From contig CAZVDD010000013.1 of NCBI GenBank assembly GCA_964626075.1, forward strand, positions 31,291-95,290: a stretch of DNA of 64,000 nucleotides, given 5' to 3'. The first letter of the stretch is position 1. Each line of letters opens with the position of its first letter. The position numbers and the translations under genes were made by a program. Below, in pieces: positions 13,151 through 28,967 of this stretch. The stretch is from an uncultured bacterium (GTDB lineage Bacteria > Hydrothermota > Tepidihabitantia > Tepidihabitantales > Tepidihabitantaceae). The notes below the pieces were generated by a model, which ran no database searches, was not told the DNA's origin, and saw nothing but the letters and a program-made list of their open reading frames with translations.

Positions 13151-14307
13151 CGCCGGGCTAAAAATCGCTCAATTCTTTCGAGCGCCCGCTGGATGTTCTC
13201 GATAGAGTTGGCGTAACTGAACCGCAGAAACCCATCGCCAAACTTGCCAAAGCAGGTGCCCGCAAGACACGCTACCCCCTCCTCTTCGAGCAGTCTATCC
13301 GCGAGAACCTTACAGTCAATTCCGGTGCCTTCGATATTGGGAAAGACATAAAAAGCGCCCTGCGGTTTAATACAACGAAAACCCGGAAGCCGGTTCAAGC
13401 CCTCGACAATAAGGTCCCGCCGCCGCTTAAACTCCGCCACCATTTGGTCAACAGGTTCACGGGGACCGTTAAGCGCCGCCAAACAGGCACGTTGAATAAA
13501 TGTCGCTGTGCAGGAGTTGATGTTGGTCTCAATCCGCGCCATCTTTTCTGCCAGTTCCGCCGGCATTATACCATAACCGATGCGCCAGCCGGTCATCGCA
13601 AAGGTCTTGGAAAAACCATCGAGAATAATCAAACGGCGTCCCGCCTCGGGAAACTGAGCAATCGACTCAAATTGTCCGTCATAGACAATCTCCGAGTAGA
13701 TTTCGTCGGCGAGAATCCAGACATTGTGTCTTATCGCAACTTCGGCAATCAAGCGCAAATCTTCCCGGGTTAACACTCCACCGGTCGGGTTTGCCGGCGA
13801 GTTGATAATAATCATCTTCGTTCGGGAATTGACCAATGACACCAACTCTTCAACATCCAGCCGAAAACCCCGTTCTTCCCGGAGCCGGATCGGTACCGGT
13901 CTTCCGCCCATATAGTCAATCATTGATTCATAGATAGGAAAACCGGGATTGGGATAAATCACTTCATCCCCGGTCTCAACCAGTGCCATAATCGCAAATG
14001 ACATTACCGGTTTTCCGCCAGGCGTGATTACAACCTGCTCCGGGAAAAACTTCGTTCCCCGCAACCGCCCCGCATATTTCGCAATTGCATCCCGAAGCTC
14101 GCCTAAACCCGCCGAAGGGCAGTAATGGGTCCAGCCCTCATCCAGCGCCTGTTTTGCCGCTTCAACAATGTGTTTGGGTGTCGGGAAGTCAGGTTCGCCA
14201 ATCTCCAGATGAATCACCGCCATTTTGCATTCCAGCTCCTTTGCCCGACACAGACAGTCAAAAGCGGTCTCGGTTCCCAGCCGACTCATCCGCTCTGCCA
14301 GTCTCAT
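13147..14307 (-). CDS. Class I aminotransferase, aspartate aminotransferase-like (386 aa).
   Basis: IHLEIGEPDFPTP and SKTFAMTGWRIGY class-I aminotransferase motifs. Confidence 0.75.
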   Translation of the reverse strand: MRLAERMSRLGTETAFDCLCRAKELECKMAVIHLEIGEPDFPTPKHIVEAAKQALDEGWTHYCPSAGLGELRDAIAKYAGRLRGTKFFPEQVVITPGGKPVMSFAIMALVETGDEVIYPNPGFPIYESMIDYMGGRPVPIRLREERGFRLDVEELVSLVNSRTKMIIINSPANPTGGVLTREDLRLIAEVAIRHNVWILADEIYSEIVYDGQFESIAQFPEAGRRLIILDGFSKTFAMTGWRIGYGIMPAELAEKMARIETNINSCTATFIQRACLAALNGPREPVDQMVAEFKRRRDLIVEGLNRLPGFRCIKPQGAFYVFPNIEGTGIDCKVLADRLLEEEGVACLAGTCFGKFGDGFLRFSYANSIENIQRALERIERFLARR

Positions 14308-16424
14308 TTCTTACCCCCGGGCTTCCGTCTGCTCGCTGCCTTCCGCTTTGGGGTTGGGGTAGAAACCTTGACGCCTCCATCTTTCCCTTTTGCCCTATCA
14401 TACAGCTCCTTTGCCTTGGCGGCGATGTGCTCAGCCGAAACCTCAAACTCCCACATCAACTCCCAGGGCTGGCCTGACTCTCCAAACCGGTCTTTAACAC
14501 CAACCGAACCGAACGCCAGGGGACGACCGTAGAGTTCCGGAGCGGTGTGCAGGACATAAGAAACCCGGTGCGCCAGACCACCAATCTGATGCTCCTCTGC
14601 GGTCAAAACCACACCGGTCTCCAGTGCCGCCTGAATCAAAAACTTTTGATTGGGAATCGTCTCATTCGGATGGGTGCTGGGCGACTTTAAGGTGTGTAAA
14701 TTGATAACCCGGGTTTCAATTCCGAACTCCTCTTTCAAAATCCACGCCGCCCGCAACGCCTCCGGTACCATTGGTCCGCACGCCACAATCGTCAAATGCT
14801 CGCCTTCGTTCTCGTAACTGTCCAAAGTCTTGACCTCAAACGCATCAAGAAATCTGTCCTTCTCCCCCCGGTATCGATAAACATTAGGCATCCCCCAGAT
14901 AAAAGGCGTATCCGGTGTGGTAACAACCGGTGTTGCCTCGCGCGCAAACCGAATATACTTTGGTCCCTGAATACTTAAAAGCAAATGTTCGGTTGCCTTT
15001 TTGGTTTCAAGCGCATCGGCGGGTACTGACACATGCATATTGGGTAACCCACATATCTGGAACAAATCTTCCAGTGCCTGATGTGTCGCACCATCAGGAC
15101 CAACCGAAACCCCACCGTGCGCGCCGGCAATCAAAACATTGAAATTACCATAGCAAACGGTCGTACGCAACTGGTCAAGATTTCGCCCCGCAGCAAAAAC
15201 GCCGTATGTCCCGAAAACCGGCAGTTTCCCTTCCTTTGCCAGCCCTGCCGCCACATTCGTGCCCGACTGCTCGGCAATCCCAACCGAAATCCACCGTTCC
15301 ATTCGCTCTGGATACTTCTCATAAAACTTTGAAATAGCGATTGACCCCGAGATGTCGGCACCAATACAGCATACCCTTTTATCGTCACCCAGTGCTTCCA
15401 GCGCCTCGCCGAACCCGAAACGCGTTGCCTTCATTTCCACCTTCATTTTCTCCTGCTGATTCCAGAAGTAGTCCCGGGAAAACTTTGGCACCTTTGCAGT
15501 CAACTTGGCGGTCGCCTCAGCCTGATATTCCGCAGCCCTTTTCAGCAGTTCCTCGTAATCAATCCGGTAATGAAGACCAAGCTCTTCCAATCCCTTAACC
15601 ATCTCCGCCTTGTTCGGGGCTTTTCCATGCCAGCCGGCGACATTCTCCATAAACGAAACGCCTTTACCCTTGGTCGTGTGGCAGATAATCACCGTCGGCT
15701 GCCCTTTGTGCTTTGCCGCTTTATCAAATGCCGCCAGAATCTGGTGCATGTTGTGGCCATCGATCTCAATCACATTCCAACCAAACGACCGGTACTTTTC
15801 GGCAATCGGGTCAATCGGCATTACATCCTTTACCCAACCGTCAATCTGCAGCCGATTCTTATCCAGAATACAACAAAGGTTATCCAGTTTATACGCACCG
15901 GCTTCCATTATCGCTTCCCAGATCTGTCCCTCCTGATGCTCACCATCACCGGTGATACAGTAAACCCGATAATCCTTCTTATCCAACCGGGCAGCAAGAC
16001 AAATCCCCACCGCCACCGAAAGCCCCTGCCCCAGCGAACCAGAAGAAATCTCAACCCCGGGCAGTTTGAGCCAGTGCGGATGGCCCTGATAAGGAGCGTA
16101 CAGCTTCCTCAACCGCACCACATCCTCAACTGGAAAATAGCCCGCCATTGCCAGTCCTAAGTAAAGCGCCGGCGCCTTATGCCCGGCGGACCAGATAATA
16201 CGGTCCCGGTTTTCCCAGTAAGGATTTTCCGGGTCGTGCCGGGCAACATGAAGATACAGTGCCGCAGTGACATCCATAATAGAAAGCGTCCCGCCTGAAT
16301 GACCCGAACCCGCAGCACAAAGGGCAATAAGGTTATAACCGCGCATTGTATTCGCCGCCTGAATCAACTCCGCCACAGAGTAACTCTTCCGCACCGCATT
16401 GCTCTTTGAGTCAACTATCGGCAT
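14304..16424 (-). CDS. tkt: Transketolase (706 aa). N- and C-terminal split-type subunits fused by a helical linker, plus a ~35 aa lysine-rich C-terminal tail.
   Basis: N-terminal TPP-binding motifs (GHSGG, GDGE..EG). A C-terminal pyrimidine-binding/transketolase C domain follows a KAEMVKGLEELG linker. Tail KDGGVKVSTPTPKRKAASRRKPGGKK. Stop TGA overlaps the aspC-like ATG (ATGA). Confidence 0.88.
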   Translation of the reverse strand: MPIVDSKSNAVRKSYSVAELIQAANTMRGYNLIALCAAGSGHSGGTLSIMDVTAALYLHVARHDPENPYWENRDRIIWSAGHKAPALYLGLAMAGYFPVEDVVRLRKLYAPYQGHPHWLKLPGVEISSGSLGQGLSVAVGICLAARLDKKDYRVYCITGDGEHQEGQIWEAIMEAGAYKLDNLCCILDKNRLQIDGWVKDVMPIDPIAEKYRSFGWNVIEIDGHNMHQILAAFDKAAKHKGQPTVIICHTTKGKGVSFMENVAGWHGKAPNKAEMVKGLEELGLHYRIDYEELLKRAAEYQAEATAKLTAKVPKFSRDYFWNQQEKMKVEMKATRFGFGEALEALGDDKRVCCIGADISGSIAISKFYEKYPERMERWISVGIAEQSGTNVAAGLAKEGKLPVFGTYGVFAAGRNLDQLRTTVCYGNFNVLIAGAHGGVSVGPDGATHQALEDLFQICGLPNMHVSVPADALETKKATEHLLLSIQGPKYIRFAREATPVVTTPDTPFIWGMPNVYRYRGEKDRFLDAFEVKTLDSYENEGEHLTIVACGPMVPEALRAAWILKEEFGIETRVINLHTLKSPSTHPNETIPNQKFLIQAALETGVVLTAEEHQIGGLAHRVSYVLHTAPELYGRPLAFGSVGVKDRFGESGQPWELMWEFEVSAEHIAAKAKELYDRAKGKDGGVKVSTPTPKRKAASRRKPGGKK

Positions 16425-18094: not shown

Positions 18095-18514
18095 TCAAAA
18101 TGACAATAGTTTTAATCCGGTCTCCGGTTCAAGTTGTCGGCTAAGTTTCTTATCACCCGGAAAGATGGAGATCTCACAGGTAACACCTACCCGACCGGCA
18201 AACAGATGGCCCCCATAGGTTGTCATCTGTCTATCGCTAAGAACGATATGACAGTGACAAACCGGCTGTTTTCCATCCCAGGCGACATTACCCAGAAGGG
18301 ATACTATCTCAAACTCGCCTTTTAGCTGACGCCGGCGGTAACTCTTTTTACTGATATTATAGTAACCCAATTCAAAGTCGTATCCAGCACCGAGTCCACT
18401 GATAACCCCGGATTTAATCTTAACCCGCCGGGCAAACTCCACAAGAGTCGTCAATATCTCTTCTCCTTGCAAAAGTCTTAACTGATAGAACTGACTATTT
18501 TTAATCCATTTCAT
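18095..18514 (-). CDS. PPC (DUF296) domain protein (~139 aa).
   Basis: CHCHIVLS..GGHL..G.V..T.EI motif typical of the PPC/DUF296 fold. Start taken at MKWIKN (18514). The upstream K/R-rich residues in the ORF track are the alternate frame of the topA tail. Confidence 0.6.
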   Translation of the reverse strand: MKWIKNSQFYQLRLLQGEEILTTLVEFARRVKIKSGVISGLGAGYDFELGYYNISKKSYRRRQLKGEFEIVSLLGNVAWDGKQPVCHCHIVLSDRQMTTYGGHLFAGRVGVTCEISIFPGDKKLSRQLEPETGLKLLSF

Positions 18515-20615
18515 CTTTCCCCTCTTTTTTCTTGCTCTTTTTCGTTTTTTTAACAAAACGACACTGGGGATACCCGGAACAGGCGATGAATTTCCCAAAC
18601 CGGCTTTGCCGCTCCACCAAAGGCTTACCGCACTTCGGACATGATTCCGCTAGAATTTTAGGCGCCTCTTTAGGTGGACGTTTTATAAAGTCACATTGGG
18701 GATACCCGGAACAGGCGATGAATTTCCCAAACCGGCTCTGCCGCTCCACCAAAGGCTTGCCGCACTTCGGACAGATGTCTGCTAACGGTTTCTCTTCTCC
18801 CTTTTTCACATAGTCACATTCCGGATATTTTGAACAGGATATGAATTTGCCAAACCTGCCCCAGCGTTCAACCAGCACCGCTCCACACTTCGGGCAACTT
18901 TCGTTTAGCTCGCGGGTCAAACCATCTTTAATTTCGGCTGCCTCCGCCTCTGCCCGGTCCAGGTCTTCTTTAAATGGCTGGTAAAAACGCGCCACAACCT
19001 CGCGCCAATTTAATTCCCCCTCTTCAACACCGTCCAGTTCCTTTTCCATCTCGCGAGTGAACCCGATTTCAAATATGTTGGCAAACCGAGGAATTAAAAT
19101 GTCGTTTACAACCGTCCCTAACTCGGTTGGGACCAGTTTTCCCTGTTTCCTCTCAACATACCCACGCTCAACCAGAGTCGGAACGATTGTCGCATAAGTT
19201 GAAGGTCTGCCAATCCCGTTAACTTCTAACCGCTTAATCAAACTTGCTTCAGTGTAACGGGGCGGCGGCTGGGTGAACTTCTGTTCCGGGATAAACTCTT
19301 TCATCTCAACCGGTTCGCCCTTCTGTAATTCGGGCAATGAACTTTCCTTATCCGGTTCGCCGTATATCCGCTCAAAACCCTCAAAAACCCGTCTTACCGC
19401 CTCAGTCCTGAAGGTGTAATCACCCCCTTCAACTAAAACCTCGGTCAAATTGTACAACGCATCCGCCATTTGGCTGGCAACAAACCGGCGGAAAATCAAC
19501 TCGTAAACCTTAAACTCATCAGGGGTTAGATACGGTTTAACCCGCTCTGGGGTCAAATCTAGACGGGTCGGCCTTATCGCTTCATGTGCACCCTGGGTAC
19601 CCTTGCGGTCCGGATAATGCCGCGGCTTATCAGGAAGAAACCGCTCTCCATATGTTTGTGAAATTAAATTACGCACAGCAGTTACCACATCGTCCGCTAC
19701 TCGAAATGAATCGGTGCGGGGATATGTAATTAACCCGACAGTTTCCTCCTTCAAATCTACCCCTTCAAACAGCCTCTGGGCGATACGCATCGTCCGCGCT
19801 GAACCGAACTTAAACAACTGTCCCGTCTCCTTTAAAAGTGTCGCAGTCACAAAAGGCGGTAGTGGTCTCTTATGCCGTTCCCGCTGCTTAACCACGCTTA
19901 CCGTGAAACGGGTTCCCTGGCACCCCTGCCGCACCCCCTCAACTTCGGACCGGTCCTTCAACCGGAAAGTCTGATTCCTGATTTTTATCAGCTGACACTC
20001 AAAACGTTCTCCGCTCGCCCGGGCAAAAATCGCCCGAACAACCCAGAACTCCTCCGGTTTAAAACTTGCAATCTCTCTTTCCCGCTCCACCAGAATCCGA
20101 AGAGCAACGGTTTGCACCCGACCCGCCGACTTCCCTGCTCGCACTGTTCGCCACAGCAAGGGTGAAACAAGATAACCTACAAGCCGATCCAGCACCCGAC
20201 GTGCTCTATGGGCATCAACCTTCCGCAGATCAATTTCGCCCGGTGAATTAAAACCAGCCTCAATACCCCGGGGCGTAATCTCATAAAACAAAACCCGTTT
20301 TATATTCGCCCCATTCTTTATCTCCTGTGCAACCGAATAGGCAATCGCCTCGCCTTCTCGGTCCGGGTCACAACCCAGGTAAACTGTTTTTGCCTGTTTT
20401 GCCGCCGTTTTTAACTCGTTGATGACCGGCGCCTTCCCTCTTATTCTTATATACTCTGGTTCAAATCCATTTTCGATGTCAACCCCGAGTCGGGACTTTG
20501 GCAAATCCGCGATATGTCCCCGGGAGGAAAGAACCTTTACCCTGCCCTTCAGCAATCTGCTGATCGTATGAGCTTTGGTTGGAGACTCGACAATAAGTAA
20601 ATCTTTTTTGCTCAT
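18501..20615 (-). CDS. topA: DNA topoisomerase I (704 aa) with three C-terminal C4 zinc ribbons and a lysine-rich tail.
   Basis: TOPRIM N-terminus LLIVESPTKAHTI. Three CPKCG...C..YP.C repeats. Tail KKTKKSKKKEGKDEMD. Confidence 0.93.
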   Translation of the reverse strand: MSKKDLLIVESPTKAHTISRLLKGRVKVLSSRGHIADLPKSRLGVDIENGFEPEYIRIRGKAPVINELKTAAKQAKTVYLGCDPDREGEAIAYSVAQEIKNGANIKRVLFYEITPRGIEAGFNSPGEIDLRKVDAHRARRVLDRLVGYLVSPLLWRTVRAGKSAGRVQTVALRILVEREREIASFKPEEFWVVRAIFARASGERFECQLIKIRNQTFRLKDRSEVEGVRQGCQGTRFTVSVVKQRERHKRPLPPFVTATLLKETGQLFKFGSARTMRIAQRLFEGVDLKEETVGLITYPRTDSFRVADDVVTAVRNLISQTYGERFLPDKPRHYPDRKGTQGAHEAIRPTRLDLTPERVKPYLTPDEFKVYELIFRRFVASQMADALYNLTEVLVEGGDYTFRTEAVRRVFEGFERIYGEPDKESSLPELQKGEPVEMKEFIPEQKFTQPPPRYTEASLIKRLEVNGIGRPSTYATIVPTLVERGYVERKQGKLVPTELGTVVNDILIPRFANIFEIGFTREMEKELDGVEEGELNWREVVARFYQPFKEDLDRAEAEAAEIKDGLTRELNESCPKCGAVLVERWGRFGKFISCSKYPECDYVKKGEEKPLADICPKCGKPLVERQSRFGKFIACSGYPQCDFIKRPPKEAPKILAESCPKCGKPLVERQSRFGKFIACSGYPQCRFVKKTKKSKKKEGKDEMD
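18561..18772 (-). repeat. Near-identical tandem direct repeat inside topA (two ~80 nt copies, period 132 nt, 3 mismatches), encoding zinc-ribbon repeats 2 and 3.
   Basis: Copies at 18561-18640 and 18693-18772 compared directly. The encoded peptides CPKCGKPLVERQSRFGKFIACSGYPQC are identical. Confidence 0.85.
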
Positions 20616-24439: not shown

Positions 24440-25795
24440 ATGAACTACCACGCCCATATCCGGATGCGTCCTCATATGCCCCTTCTAATAATCTCACATA
24501 TTGTGCTCCTCACCCTCCCGGCTGCTGCCACTTACTGGCCCATTCCACCGATAAACCAAGTTCACCCCTTAGGAAACAATTGGGGCAACTACCAGAACTA
24601 CGGTTCTTCCCCCTACTTTCACCCCGGAATTGATATCATCACCACGGACACCAGTGGTGTTGAAGTCCGGGCGGTTGCCCACGGCTGGGTCAAAGCCTGG
24701 GGCACGATTCAAGCAGAACTGCACTACCGACTCGCGGTGTGTGATTCGCCTTTAACCTACTCTGGTCGTGCTGAAGGATGGCTTTACGCCCATATTGACC
24801 CTAACCGCTGGCACAAAAACCTTGGTGATGAGGTGCAAGAAGGGGAAGTCATTGGCTATCTTGTCGCCTGGCCCATCGATGCTTCTTTCGACCATCTTCA
24901 CTTTGCCCGCATCTCCGACACCGGCGCCACCTGGCAGCGTTTTCCCCAACCCACCTGGTGGTTTATACAGAATCCATTGACAATTATTCAACCCAATACC
25001 GACCTTGAACCACCGGTATTTGAAAATGCCCGTACCAACGCCCTTTTTGCCTTCTGCCGCAACAATACCTCAACCTACTTAAATCCCAACAACCTCACCG
25101 GTGATGTTGACATCATCGCGAAAATTTACGATCGCACCGGCTTTTCAACCGGTAATTCAACCTGGGATAAACTCGCACCTTTTCTGATTGAATACTCAAT
25201 TAAAAGTGTCGGAGGCTCGATTGTTGTTCCCTGGACCATCGGCGTCATATTTTCCGGCCGTTTGGAAGATGCCCTTGTCTCGGTAGTTTACAAAAACGAC
25301 AACACCTGCCGCTCTCAGGGTGATTACGAAAACCGTTCTTACTACTACATCGTCACCAACACCGATGGTGACAGCATAATTGAATCTACCGACATTCAGG
25401 GAAAATGGGCAACCGCCGAGGTTGGTGACGGCGACTATTGGGTACTCATCCGCGCCTCTGATGTCGTCGGTAACACAACCGTCGACTCAATGCTTGTTCA
25501 CACTGCCAACGGCGTCGCACTTGCCGAACAAAACTCAACCTTTCTCACCGCACCGCTGCGGGCAACACCGGCAAATGGCAACTGGCAAATTGATTTTGGT
25601 ATCTCCCGAGCCGCACCGGTCCGCTTGACGGTCTTTGACCCGACCGGCAGACAAGTCACAATCCTTGCCGAGCAACAGCTCGCACCCGGCAACCATCGTG
25701 TGTCATTCCGACCCTCGGCTTCTGGTGTCTATTTTGTCAACATGACCGTTGGATTTAACCAGACCTACCAGACAAAACTAACCGTAATAAAATAA
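24440..25795 (+). CDS. Secreted M23-family (LytM-like) metallopeptidase with a T9SS-type C-terminal sorting domain (451 aa).
   Basis: HPGIDI and DHLHF (HxxxD ... HxH) zinc-ligand motifs. Signal-peptide-like N-terminus. C-terminal ~70 aa ...VFDPTGRQV..APGNHRVSF..ASGVYFV..KLTVIK matches Por_Secre_tail-type domains. Confidence 0.7.
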   Translation: MNYHAHIRMRPHMPLLIISHIVLLTLPAAATYWPIPPINQVHPLGNNWGNYQNYGSSPYFHPGIDIITTDTSGVEVRAVAHGWVKAWGTIQAELHYRLAVCDSPLTYSGRAEGWLYAHIDPNRWHKNLGDEVQEGEVIGYLVAWPIDASFDHLHFARISDTGATWQRFPQPTWWFIQNPLTIIQPNTDLEPPVFENARTNALFAFCRNNTSTYLNPNNLTGDVDIIAKIYDRTGFSTGNSTWDKLAPFLIEYSIKSVGGSIVVPWTIGVIFSGRLEDALVSVVYKNDNTCRSQGDYENRSYYYIVTNTDGDSIIESTDIQGKWATAEVGDGDYWVLIRASDVVGNTTVDSMLVHTANGVALAEQNSTFLTAPLRATPANGNWQIDFGISRAAPVRLTVFDPTGRQVTILAEQQLAPGNHRVSFRPSASGVYFVNMTVGFNQTYQTKLTVIK

Positions 25796-27358: not shown

Positions 27359-28615
27359 TTACTCAAGAAAGAAGATGTTGCGTTTGGCGCAAATCTCTTT
27401 GAGCACCTTGGGCCAGACCGTAACCGATACCTCGCCCAGACTTGCGGTCCTAAGCAGATACATATAGGTCCGCGACTGGCCAATACCACCACCGATAGAA
27501 AGGGGCACCCGATCGTTCATAATCGCCTGATGATAGGGCAACTCAAGGAAATGCTCCTGTTTCGCCATCTTCAACTGCTGAACAAGCGTCTCTTTCGTCA
27601 CACGGATACCCATTGAGGTCAACTCGTGTCGTCTTCTTGTTACCGGATTCCAAACCAGGATGTCGCCGTTCATACCGTGGGTCGGCTTTCCGGTCCAATG
27701 GGAAGTGTCGGTAATCCAGTCGTCGTAGTCGGCTGCCCGCATCTCATGGGGCAACCCATCAGCCAGCGGATAGCCAATACCGATGATGAAAACCGCCGGC
27801 GCATACTCCTGAAGCAGTTTGGTCTCCCGCTGCTTTCGTGGTAAGTCCGGGTACATCTCAAGAATCTCCTCGGCGTGGATGAAGGTCAACTCTTCAGGAA
27901 TGGGCGGATACTTTGTCGTGCGCAACTCCGGAAACTGCTCCTGAACCAGGTGAGATGCTCCCACAATCACCTTCCAGATTTTCCTTACGACATCCTTAAG
28001 ATAATCAAGGTTCCGGTCCTGCGCAGTAATAACCTTCTCCCAGTCCCACTGGTCAACATAAGAGGAGTGGTCGTGGTCCAGGAAATAATCTTTCCGCACT
28101 GCTCGCATATCGGTGCAAATCCCTTCACCTACCTTGCACCCAAACTGCGCCAGCGCCAACCGCTTCCACTTGGTCGCTGCCTGAACAATCTGAGCGTTGA
28201 TTCGTGGGGAAATGCCCAGTCCACAGGGAAATTCGACCGGAGTCCTGGAACCATCCCGGTCCAGATAGTCGTTGACCCCTGACTCCCGCTCCACAATCAA
28301 GGGCACCTGAACCATATGCAGGTTCAGTTCCCGGCACAGGTTCTTCTCAATGTACTCCTTGATCATAAAGAGCGCGTCCATCCGTTTTAGCGGCGGTAGA
28401 ATCGGCTCGTAATCGGTGGGTAAAATTTTCTCCACCTCTTCATAGGTGCCGACACCTGGACCGGCTAAATCGGCTCGCTTCTTATCCAGAAGCGTCGGTG
28501 CTGCGCTCTTGAGCGAGGCTTTCTTCGGTATCTTTTTTGCCACTTTTTTCTTAGTGACTTTTTTCACCGTCTTGCGTGCGGTCTTCTTCACCGCCTTTTT
28601 CTGCTTTTTCTTCAT
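27359..28615 (-). CDS. asnA: Aspartate--ammonia ligase (asparagine synthetase A) with a ~75 aa N-terminal extension, including a 40 aa lysine-rich histone-H1-like tail.
   Basis: Core aligns to E. coli AsnA (SSYVDQWDWE, GDILVWNP, SMGIRV, IGGGIGQSR). ATG at 28615 preceded by AAAGGAG Shine-Dalgarno. N-terminus MKKKQKKAVKKTARKTVKKVTKKKVAKKIPKK. Confidence 0.85.
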   Translation of the reverse strand: MKKKQKKAVKKTARKTVKKVTKKKVAKKIPKKASLKSAAPTLLDKKRADLAGPGVGTYEEVEKILPTDYEPILPPLKRMDALFMIKEYIEKNLCRELNLHMVQVPLIVERESGVNDYLDRDGSRTPVEFPCGLGISPRINAQIVQAATKWKRLALAQFGCKVGEGICTDMRAVRKDYFLDHDHSSYVDQWDWEKVITAQDRNLDYLKDVVRKIWKVIVGASHLVQEQFPELRTTKYPPIPEELTFIHAEEILEMYPDLPRKQRETKLLQEYAPAVFIIGIGYPLADGLPHEMRAADYDDWITDTSHWTGKPTHGMNGDILVWNPVTRRRHELTSMGIRVTKETLVQQLKMAKQEHFLELPYHQAIMNDRVPLSIGGGIGQSRTYMYLLRTASLGEVSVTVWPKVLKEICAKRNIFFLE

Positions 28616-28775
28616 CTGCTACACTCCTTTTTGTTAATCTACTTCTTACATCATATTTAAAGGAAAATCGGCATATTAAGGATAACAACCCCGACTTAAT
28701 CTGTCAAGGATTAATGACACCCGAAACGCCGTTCGATGCTCAATTTACCACTCCAAAATTGATTAAGGATTTTTG

Positions 28776-28804
28776 TTGACAAGCGGCTTAGGGGGTGTTA
28801 AAAT
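28776..28804 (+). promoter_or_regulatory. Near-consensus sigma70 promoter (TTGACA 28776-81, 17 nt spacer, TAAAAT 28799-804) driving the candidate sRNA.
   Basis: Read directly from the sequence. Confidence 0.55.
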
Positions 28805-28810
28805 TAACCA

Positions 28811-28967
28811 CAATTTGGTGAGGTGGAGGCGGTTGTTTCAGGCGACGGAACGGCATCTCAACCTCCTCAAAAAGCCCAAAGGAATGCCCTCGCATTCCAA
28901 TCCCACCAAAAAAGCCTCGCCTGAAACCGGCCCTGGCCGCATCCACCTCACATTTTGTTTTATATTT
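28811..28967 (+). ncRNA. Candidate ~150 nt rod-shaped small RNA. The 5' and 3' ends pair and it has an intrinsic-terminator-like 3' end.
   Basis: 5' GGUGAGGUGGAGGCGG (28817-32) pairs with CCGCAUCCACCUCAC (28937-51) with one mismatch. An inner perfect 10 bp helix pairs UUUCAGGCGA (28836-45) with UCGCCUGAAA (28917-26). An apical 7 bp hairpin GGAAUGC-CCUC-GCAUUCC lies at 28881-98. A U-tract AUUUUGUUUUAUAUUU follows the closing helix. The overlapping 81 aa ORF has no coding support. Confidence 0.45.

What the first reader, a model, noticed from the sequence alone, without database searches (positions are those of the whole stretch)
27359..28615. AsnA with a histone-H1-like N-terminal extension
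Aspartate-ammonia ligase is a paralog of the class IIb aaRS catalytic core. Eukaryotic AsnRS, AspRS and LysRS carry lysine-rich N-terminal tRNA-binding helices. An AsnA with a 40 aa K-rich tail plus a 35 aa linker is unusual for bacteria. It may bind nucleic acid, for example tRNA or the nucleoid. The start is firmly supported by an AAAGGAG Shine-Dalgarno directly upstream of the K-rich codons.
Basis: partly seen in the sequence, partly recalled or inferred. Interest (0 to 1): 0.55.

Follow-up and report, generated by a model that had tools for sequence, protein, structure and literature searches.

The report
AsnA with lysine-rich disordered tail
An otherwise ordinary asparagine-making enzyme (AsnA) from one group of uncultured WOR-3 bacteria carries a real, conserved, strongly positively charged floppy tail of about 40 residues at its start; the tail probably sticks to RNA, DNA or other negatively charged polymers, but nothing here tests that.

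Summary
The ORF 27359..28615 (minus strand, 418 aa) is a canonical aspartate-ammonia ligase. Its first ~40 residues are 45-50% lysine, have no acidic residue and are predicted to be disordered.

The start codon is secure:
- A Shine-Dalgarno sequence and a -35/-10 promoter lie upstream in the tail-bearing lineages examined.
- A conserved protein segment lies upstream of every internal ATG.

The tail is not a one-off. There are 33 distinct versions in a single monophyletic clade of "candidate division WOR-3" AsnAs. Their order is scrambled, but composition, length and charge (about +18) are kept. One further long tail arose separately, and another WOR-3 clade has a short basic extension.

AsnA is the only protein with such a tail in ~200 kb sampled from these genomes. 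None of 80 AsnA loci from other phyla has one.

Residues 41-63 (DKKRADLAGPGVGTY...) are a near-invariant N-terminal segment of a large, cross-phylum AsnA subfamily. The canonical fold starts at residue 64.

Nucleic-acid or tRNA binding remains an inference from charge. The tail has no detectable homologue.

In passing, I found a well-supported unannotated structured small RNA between pdxA and asnA.

The parts
27359..28615 (-). asnA coding sequence, 418 codons plus stop (aspartate-ammonia ligase)
   Evidence: ORF. Pfam PF03590 E=1e-79. TIGR00669 at 286 bits. PDB sequence matches 9v83, 11as and 4lns. Foldseek match to 11as_A with TM 0.85.
28496..28615 (-). Lysine-rich tail, aa 1-40 (MKKKQKKAVKKTARKTVKKVTKKKVAKKIPKKASLKSAAP). 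Net charge about +20, no acidic residue.
   Evidence: Sequence. pLDDT below 50 and coil for residues 1-37. Present in all members of one WOR-3 clade. No homologue found.
28427..28495 (-). Subfamily-conserved N-terminal segment, aa 41-63 (TLLDKKRADLAGPGVGTYEEVEK).
   Evidence: Invariant columns D49-G54, T57 and Y58. The motif is at the start of AsnA in nearly all of the 80 loci from many phyla. Absent from solved AsnA structures.
27362..28426 (-). Canonical AsnA fold, aa 64-418. It includes YVDQWDWE, NGDILVWNP and GGGIGQSR, which are shared with E. coli AsnA.
   Evidence: Residue-by-residue alignments to 9v83 (from aa 64) and 11as (from aa 82). Fold match.
28624..28630 (-). Shine-Dalgarno AAAGGAG, 8 nt upstream of the ATG
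   Evidence: An equivalent AAAGGAG/AGGAG lies 5-9 nt before the tail ATG in six tail-bearing lineages.
28679..28707 (-). asnA promoter: TTGACA, 17 nt, TATCCT
   Evidence: Consensus scan, 10 of 12 matches with TG. CTTGAC is invariant (CTTGACA in 4 of 5 lineages) with a -10-like hexamer downstream.

Best explanation
This is a catalytically standard aspartate-ammonia ligase (aspartate + ATP + NH3 gives asparagine). In one clade of WOR-3 bacteria it has acquired a ~40-residue, intrinsically disordered, polycationic N-terminal tail. The tail is translated from the annotated ATG.

Selection acts on the tail's composition, length and charge, not on residue order. That is the signature of a functional disordered region that works by bulk electrostatics.

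The most likely mode of action is non-specific binding of cellular polyanions, above all RNA (ribosomes, tRNA) or nucleoid DNA. E. coli AsnA crystallises as a dimer (prior knowledge, not tested here), so a dimer would carry two tails. That would tether or concentrate the enzyme on nucleic-acid-rich compartments without changing its chemistry.

Shown: the gene, the start, the tail's reality, its disorder prediction, its clade-wide retention and its specificity to AsnA.
Inferred: polyanion binding and any localisation effect.
For: Identity of the enzyme.

Start codon:
- An SD precedes the tail ATG in six lineages.
- The promoter is conserved upstream.
- No in-frame ATG/GTG/TTG lies between V25 and the invariant DLAGPG segment.
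- The identical 418-aa protein was called on 10 independent metagenome contigs.
- NCBI and UniProt entries are of the same length.

Retention under selection:
- The long tails form one monophyletic clade.
- There are 33 distinct tails, 29 of them with no acidic residue. Mean charge is +18 and median length 37 aa.
- Tail identity falls to 0.53-0.56, against 0.47 for shuffled tails, while core identity is 0.7-0.97.
- All indels are in frame.
- Tail dN is 0.2-0.45 with dS saturated at 1.3 or higher.
- Basic extensions arose again independently: P0109 with 34 aa, and a WOR-3 clade with 14-18 aa and 5-8 K/R.

Specific to AsnA:
- AsnA is the only ORF with 9 or more K per 25 aa in about 200 kb from these genomes.
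- There are 2 borderline cases among 2084 ORFs from other phyla.

Physical properties:
- Disorder: pLDDT below 50 and coil for residues 1-37.
- Charge: the tail shifts the protein's pI from about 6.2 to about 9.4.

Precedents for lysine-rich disordered tails that bind polyanions:
- The eukaryotic LysRS N-terminal tRNA-interaction domain (PMC6213541).
- The H1-like AlgP on polyphosphate granules (PMC9239181).
Against: - No binding experiment or localisation data exist.
- The tail has no homologue that could transfer a function.
- Sequence order is almost unconstrained, which is also what neutral low-complexity drift within a composition bias would look like.
- One cluster member has a tail about 20 aa shorter (P0129, 398 aa). 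P0007 has only 18 residues before DLAGPG, so the full length is not strictly required.
- Only about 100 genes of these genomes were sampled. A wider habit of basic tails cannot be excluded. The transketolase-like protein at 14304..16424 has a mildly basic C-terminal tail.
Confidence: 0.55

Rival explanations
1. The tail is a dedicated tRNA-binding appendage, a bacterial counterpart of the lysine-rich N-terminal helices of eukaryotic AsnRS, AspRS and LysRS. It would couple AsnA to tRNA(Asn), AsnRS or the ribosome.
For: AsnA has the class IIb synthetase catalytic fold; the best non-AsnA structural matches are AspRS, AsnRS and LysRS. [quoted passage not shown] In class IIb synthetases that domain sits N-terminal to the core (prior knowledge), which is where the tail is attached. 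The eukaryotic LysRS extension is likewise disordered and lysine-rich (PMC6213541).
Against: There is no sequence similarity to any synthetase extension. The model shows coil, not a helix. The helical hydrophobic moment is not above shuffles, p about 0.06. Residue order is unconstrained, which argues against a specific recognition surface. AsnA chemistry needs no tRNA. LeuRS in the window has no tail.
Confidence: 0.1
2. The tail is a functionless low-complexity expansion, produced by slippage in A-rich codons at the 5' end of the gene. It is tolerated because it is disordered and simply inherited within the clade.
For: Residue order is almost random beyond composition. Length varies from 26 to 51 aa, with shorter variants P0129 and P0007. 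The tail evolves 2-8 times faster than the core in dN.
Against: The tail is retained in every full-length member of a clade whose synonymous sites are saturated. Acidic residues are almost completely excluded (29 of 33 tails have none). Charge and length are kept in a narrow range. dN stays well below dS. Basic extensions on the same enzyme were gained independently. No other gene in the sampled 200 kb shows such an expansion.
Confidence: 0.17
3. The tail acts on the protein's own production or solubility rather than on a partner. It could be an A-rich, unstructured translation-initiation region. It could also be an RNA-assisted folding or solubility tag, or a charge-balancing partner for the acidic core.
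For: The core is acidic (net -3 to -8, pI about 6.2) in the main tail-bearing clade, slightly more so than in tail-less relatives. N-terminal RNA-interaction tags improve folding of fused proteins (PMC7262357).
Against: An initiation effect needs only a few codons, not about 40. The difference in core charge between groups is within one standard deviation. Lysine codon usage in the tail is the same as in the core.
Confidence: 0.1
4. The polyanion that is bound is not nucleic acid. It could be polyphosphate granules or the anionic membrane surface.
For: The H1-like AlgP localises to polyphosphate granules (PMC9239181). A charge of about +20 per chain would bind any polyanion.
Against: There is no amphipathic-helix signal and the mean hydrophobicity is very low, which argues against membrane insertion. 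Nothing in the window points to polyphosphate metabolism.
Confidence: 0.06
5. The start is mis-annotated. Translation begins downstream and the lysine-rich codons are 5' untranslated sequence.
For: One database member of the same cluster was called with a short N-terminus (P0130, 384 aa).
Against: The invariant DKKRADLAGPG segment lies upstream of the first internal ATG (M79). The only in-frame alternative starts before it (GTG at codons 9, 17 and 25) are themselves inside the tail. SD and promoter positions are conserved. The frame is kept open through many in-frame indels.
Confidence: 0.02

Closest known systems
Bacterial aspartate-ammonia ligase AsnA (E. coli 11AS/12AS; the 345-aa enzyme of PDB 9v83; Pfam PF03590, TIGR00669)
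   Same: Same fold and the same catalytic motifs: YVDQWDWE, NGDILVWNP and GGGIGQSR. The alignment runs full length from residue 64 (9v83) or 82 (E. coli) to the C-terminus.
   Different: There are about 63 extra N-terminal residues. Of these, 23 (aa 41-63) are typical of a large cross-phylum subfamily. About 40 (aa 1-40) form the lysine-rich tail, found only in one WOR-3 clade. The TIGR00669 score is just under its cut-off (286 against 292.8).
Lysine-rich N-terminal tRNA-interaction extensions of eukaryotic class IIb synthetases (LysRS, AspRS, AsnRS)
   Same: An N-terminal, lysine-rich, disordered appendage on a class IIb synthetase-type catalytic core (PMC6213541 for LysRS).
   Different: There is no detectable homology. 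No helix is predicted. The host enzyme does not use tRNA. The organism is bacterial. Binding is untested.
Bacterial histone H1-like K/A/P-rich tails (for example AlgP of Pseudomonas)
   Same: The composition is dominated by K, A, P, T and V, with almost no acidic residues, and the sequence is disordered and hypervariable (PMC9239181).
   Different: Those tails sit on DNA- or granule-associated proteins. Here the tail is fused to a biosynthetic enzyme. There is no regular KPAA-type repeat unit and no homology.

Membership tests
AsnA (aspartate-ammonia ligase, PF03590 / TIGR00669) | Significant match to the family profile | tested here: met
   PF03590 at 267.7 bits against a cut-off of 27. TIGR00669 at 286 bits, slightly below its equivalog cut-off of 292.8.
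AsnA (aspartate-ammonia ligase, PF03590 / TIGR00669) | Class II synthetase-like catalytic fold without an anticodon-binding domain | tested here: met
   The AlphaFold2 model matches 11as_A with TM 0.85 and 4lns with TM 0.80, then AspRS/AsnRS catalytic domains. No other Pfam domain was found.
AsnA (aspartate-ammonia ligase, PF03590 / TIGR00669) | Conserved substrate and ATP motifs of E. coli AsnA (DQWDWE block, GGGIGQSR motif 3) | tested here: met
   These blocks are identical in the residue-level alignment to 11as and 9v83, and invariant among 45 homologues.
AsnA (aspartate-ammonia ligase, PF03590 / TIGR00669) | Ammonia-dependent asparagine synthesis activity; homodimer | not testable with these tools
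   This needs an enzyme assay and a measurement of oligomeric state.
Eukaryotic-type appended tRNA-binding extension of class IIb synthetases | Sequence relationship to known extensions | tested here: not met
   phmmer of the 44-aa tail against 1.84 billion representatives gave 0 hits at E<=0.001. No Pfam match was found outside AsnA.
Eukaryotic-type appended tRNA-binding extension of class IIb synthetases | Propensity for an amphipathic helix | tested here: inconclusive
   AlphaFold2 gives coil with pLDDT below 50. The maximum helical hydrophobic moment is 0.56, reached by 6% of shuffles. Many orthologous tails contain prolines.
Eukaryotic-type appended tRNA-binding extension of class IIb synthetases | Binds tRNA | not testable with these tools
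   This needs a gel-shift or filter-binding assay.
Histone H1-like lysine-rich tail (compositional class, not a homologous family) | K/A/P/T-rich, acid-free, disordered, rapidly evolving sequence | tested here: met
   K 42%, A 15%, V 9%, T 8%, P 7%, R 6%. 29 of 33 tails have no D/E. Disorder is predicted.
Histone H1-like lysine-rich tail (compositional class, not a homologous family) | DNA or polyanion binding | not testable with these tools
   Inferred from charge only.

The most novel reading that the evidence does not exclude
A bacterial lineage has convergently re-invented the eukaryotic solution of bolting a lysine-rich RNA-binding arm onto a class IIb synthetase-type core, but on the tRNA-independent paralog AsnA. 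The enzyme would then be physically tethered to tRNA(Asn), AsnRS or the ribosome, and freshly made asparagine would be channelled into translation. In the boldest form, the enzyme would act on a tRNA-bound substrate.
Probability: 0.07. Interest if true: 0.75.

Novelty: new variant of a known kind. Interest (0 to 1): 0.4.

Why it matters
Appended lysine-rich arms are regarded as a eukaryotic elaboration of class IIb aminoacyl-tRNA synthetases. A clade-wide, selected, AsnA-specific counterpart in bacteria would give a simple natural system to ask two things. What does a polycationic disordered tail do for a soluble metabolic enzyme (localisation, condensation or channelling)? How do such tails arise de novo?

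If the tail only provides non-specific stickiness, it is a modest curiosity in an uncultured phylum. The proteins are already deposited as plain "aspartate--ammonia ligase", with no remark on the tail in the database names seen here.

Tried and rejected
1. Searching the protein collection with the first 83 residues, to enumerate tail-bearing AsnAs, returned only 5 fragments. I used cluster membership instead.
2. A tail-only search of 1.84 billion representatives found nothing. The tail cannot be assigned to any family, and there is no evidence for fusion with a free-standing lysine-rich gene.
It was useful as a negative control. It did not let me look for AsnRS, AspRS or GatCAB in the same genome.
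4. A membrane-targeting amphipathic helix was rejected.
5. A signal peptide was rejected because no hydrophobic core follows the basic stretch (sequence).
6. A riboswitch, T-box or leader RNA in the asnA 5' region was rejected: no Rfam match, and the promoter lies only ~60 nt upstream of the ATG.
7. The antisense ORF 28446..28637 (+) is just the F/L-rich mirror image of the lysine codons.
8. A proteome-wide habit of lysine tails is not seen in about 200 kb sampled.
9. The 22-52-aa ORF on the minus strand inside the conserved intergenic block was rejected as coding. A 1-nt indel shifts its frame in L092/L103, and the pairing pattern fits the opposite strand.

Full report
**What is there**

The finding's coordinates hold one ORF on the minus strand, 27359..28615, 418 aa, starting with ATG. 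It is an aspartate-ammonia ligase:
- Pfam AsnA matches aa 81-326 with E = 1e-79.
- TIGR00669 matches aa 83-407 at 286 bits, just under its equivalog cut-off of 292.8.
- By sequence it matches three solved AsnAs: 9v83 from query residue 64, E. coli 11as from 82, and T. brucei 4lns from 81. The YVDQWDWE, NGDILVWNP and GGGIGQSR blocks are identical.
- An AlphaFold2 model (mean pLDDT 73.8) matches 11as_A with TM 0.85, then class IIb AspRS, AsnRS and LysRS catalytic domains.

The first 36 residues contain 18 K and 1 R and no acidic residue, against 6.4% K in the rest of the protein. The binomial P is about 1e-12.

**The start codon**

- AAAGGAG lies at 28624..28630, 8 nt before the ATG.
- A TTGACA-17-TATCCT promoter lies at 28707..28679.
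- In five lineages CTTGAC is invariant (CTTGACA in four of them) and a -10-like hexamer follows.
- In six tail-bearing lineages an AAAGGAG or AGGAG sits 5-9 nt before the ATG that opens the lysine-rich stretch.
- After codon 1, the only in-frame ATG/GTG/TTG codons before M79 are GTG at codons 9, 17, 25 and 61.
- Residues 46-58 are invariant among homologues, so translation must begin inside or before the tail. An internal start near residue 76 is excluded.
- The identical 418-aa protein was called on 10 contigs from at least four metagenome samples. It is deposited at that length in NCBI and UniProt as [quoted passage not shown].

**The "linker" is not a linker**

The 120 best homologue clusters are 76-96% identical to the query. 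Most are 375-379 aa and begin M-x(2-8)-DKKADLAGPG[VI][SG]TYEEVEKILPNDY.

The same motif opens AsnA in nearly all of the 80 loci of GTDB genomes. These come from Acidobacteriota, Actinomycetota, Planctomycetota, Gemmatimonadota, Bacteroidota, Desulfobacterota, Eisenbacteria, Ignavibacteria and even archaeal MAGs, at 60-79% identity.

Residues 41-63 of the query are therefore a near-invariant N-terminal segment of a large AsnA subfamily. None of the solved structures has it. Residue 64 onward is the canonical fold. Only about 40 residues are truly appended.

**Distribution of the tail**

- In a neighbour-joining tree of the core, all proteins with 40-48 residues before DLAGPG (17-22 K/R) form a single clade of 14 cluster representatives plus the query. 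One member of that clade is shortened: P0007, with 18 residues.
- P0109 (34 residues, 14 K/R) branches elsewhere, which indicates a second, independent gain.
- A separate WOR-3 clade has a 14-18-residue extension with 5-8 K/R.
- With cluster members included, there are 41 tail-bearing sequences with 33 distinct tails.
- Tail composition is K 42%, A 15%, V 9%, T 8%, P 7% and R 6%. 29 of 33 tails have no acidic residue. Mean net charge is +18 and median length 37 aa.
- Tail identity is 0.53-0.56 whether the cores are 70% or 97% identical, barely above the 0.47 of shuffled tails. Order is nearly free, while composition, charge and length are held.
- All length differences are in frame.
- Tail dN is 0.2-0.45 and core dN 0.04-0.2, with dS saturated.
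- Partial synteny (asnA, M23-like, methyltransferase, MJ0043_C, HIT, HAD, ACPS, topA, PCC) links the lineages.

**Specific to AsnA**

- In the 64-kb window the next most lysine-rich real termini are the topoisomerase I C-terminus and a mildly basic C-terminal tail on a transketolase-like protein.
- In about 200 kb from ten loci of the tail clade, the only ORFs of 150 aa or more with at least 9 K in 25 residues are the AsnAs themselves.
- In 1.28 Mb from other phyla, 2 of 2084 ORFs reach that threshold, and only marginally.
- LeuRS in the window has no tail.

**Properties**

- AlphaFold2 gives pLDDT below 50 and no secondary structure for residues 1-37.
- The helical hydrophobic moment is not significantly above shuffles (p about 0.06), and mean hydrophobicity is very low. 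That argues against a membrane helix.
- The tail moves the calculated pI from about 6.2 (core) to about 9.4.
- The tail alone finds no relative among 1.84 billion representative proteins.
- No riboswitch or leader RNA precedes the gene.

**Interpretation**

Shown: a standard AsnA with a translated, disordered, polycationic tail that is retained clade-wide and is specific to AsnA.

Inferred: the tail binds polyanions non-specifically, most plausibly RNA or DNA, and so tethers or concentrates the presumably dimeric enzyme.

Two precedents exist. The eukaryotic LysRS N-terminal domain is disordered and lysine-rich and binds tRNA (PMC6213541). The H1-like AlgP sits on polyphosphate granules (PMC9239181).

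AsnA is a class IIb synthetase paralog that lacks the anticodon-binding domain (PMC3532385), and in those synthetases that domain precedes the core. But the free residue order, the absence of a predicted helix and the lack of homology argue for bulk electrostatics rather than specific recognition.

A neutral low-complexity expansion remains possible. It fits poorly with the near-total exclusion of acidic residues, the stable charge and length, the repeated gains, and the restriction to this one gene.

**Verdict**

The finding is real and unusual, and its function is unproven. It is a new variant of a known enzyme, of moderate interest.

**Side finding**

Between pdxA and asnA, on the + strand at about 28811..28962, lies a ~145-nt structured RNA candidate.
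- It has its own TTGACA-17-TAAAAT promoter (28776..28804, 11 of 12 matches) and a stem followed by a U-run.
- Eleven distinct copies from metagenomes align at 89% column identity.
- The consensus fold has an 18-bp outer stem, a 13-bp inner stem and a 7-bp hairpin. Six pairs covary, 97% of cells are paired, and 0 of 500 shuffles reach the covariation score.
- G-U pairs fix the strand: 427 of 440 cells pair on the + strand against 388 on the other.
- The interior of about 70 nt is invariant and includes CCUCCU.
- There is no Rfam match.
- A covariance model finds it on the expected strand in all loci where pdxA is nearby, including L089, where asnA is 2 kb away. It finds no copy in 28 loci from other phyla.
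- It therefore travels with the 3' end of pdxA and is probably unrelated to the tail.

Noticed in passing
window 28811..28962 (+), promoter 28776..28804; also L089 7916..8060, L090 9616..9761, L092 9666..9810, L095, L098-L105, L107: An unannotated ~145-nt structured small RNA candidate lies convergent with pdxA and divergent from asnA. It has a near-consensus promoter, a 31-bp two-part closing stem, a 7-bp hairpin, an invariant ~70-nt interior containing an anti-Shine-Dalgarno-like CCUCCU, and a U-run terminator. Six pairs covary, and G-U pairs assign it to the + strand. There is no Rfam family. It was found only in WOR-3-type contigs. Its function is unknown.
   Followed up: yes
window 28427..28495 (-), aa 41-63 of AsnA; L001-L080: A near-invariant N-terminal segment (DKKADLAGPG[IV][GS]xYxE[VL]EK) defines a large AsnA subfamily. 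The subfamily is 60-79% identical across more than 10 bacterial phyla and some archaeal MAGs, which is unusually high cross-phylum conservation. The segment is absent from all solved AsnA structures and modelled with low confidence. Its role is unknown.
   Followed up: partly
window 14304..16424 (-): A transketolase-like protein (706 aa) ends in a moderately basic, proline- and glycine-containing tail, KGKDGGVKVSTPTPKRKAASRRKPGGKK. This is a second metabolic enzyme in the window with a basic terminal extension, though far weaker than that of AsnA.
   Followed up: no
window 28788..28946 (-): A short ORF with a perfect GAGGAGG Shine-Dalgarno sequence (MPFRRLKQPPPPH...) lies inside the conserved intergenic block on the asnA strand. 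The peptide start is conserved in most copies, but a 1-nt indel shifts the frame in L092/L103 and the C-termini differ. It is probably a by-product of the RNA on the other strand.
   Followed up: partly
P0109 / L091 1105..2415; P0024, P0032, P0074 and relatives: Basic N-terminal extensions on this AsnA subfamily arose more than once. P0109 has a 34-residue lysine-rich tail on an unrelated branch, plus an odd C-terminal extension that may be an assembly artefact. A separate WOR-3 clade has a 14-18-residue extension with 5-8 K/R.
   Followed up: partly
window 24440..25795 (+): An M23-peptidase-like protein carries a C-terminal Por secretion (T9SS) sorting domain. This is consistent with the FCB-group affinity of WOR-3.
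   Followed up: no
window 18095..18598 and 18501..20615 (-): The longest-ORF call for the PCC-domain gene starts inside the topoisomerase I C-terminus and gives a spurious lysine/arginine-rich N-terminus. Gene callers on identical contigs start it at MKWIKNS (139 aa).
   Followed up: partly
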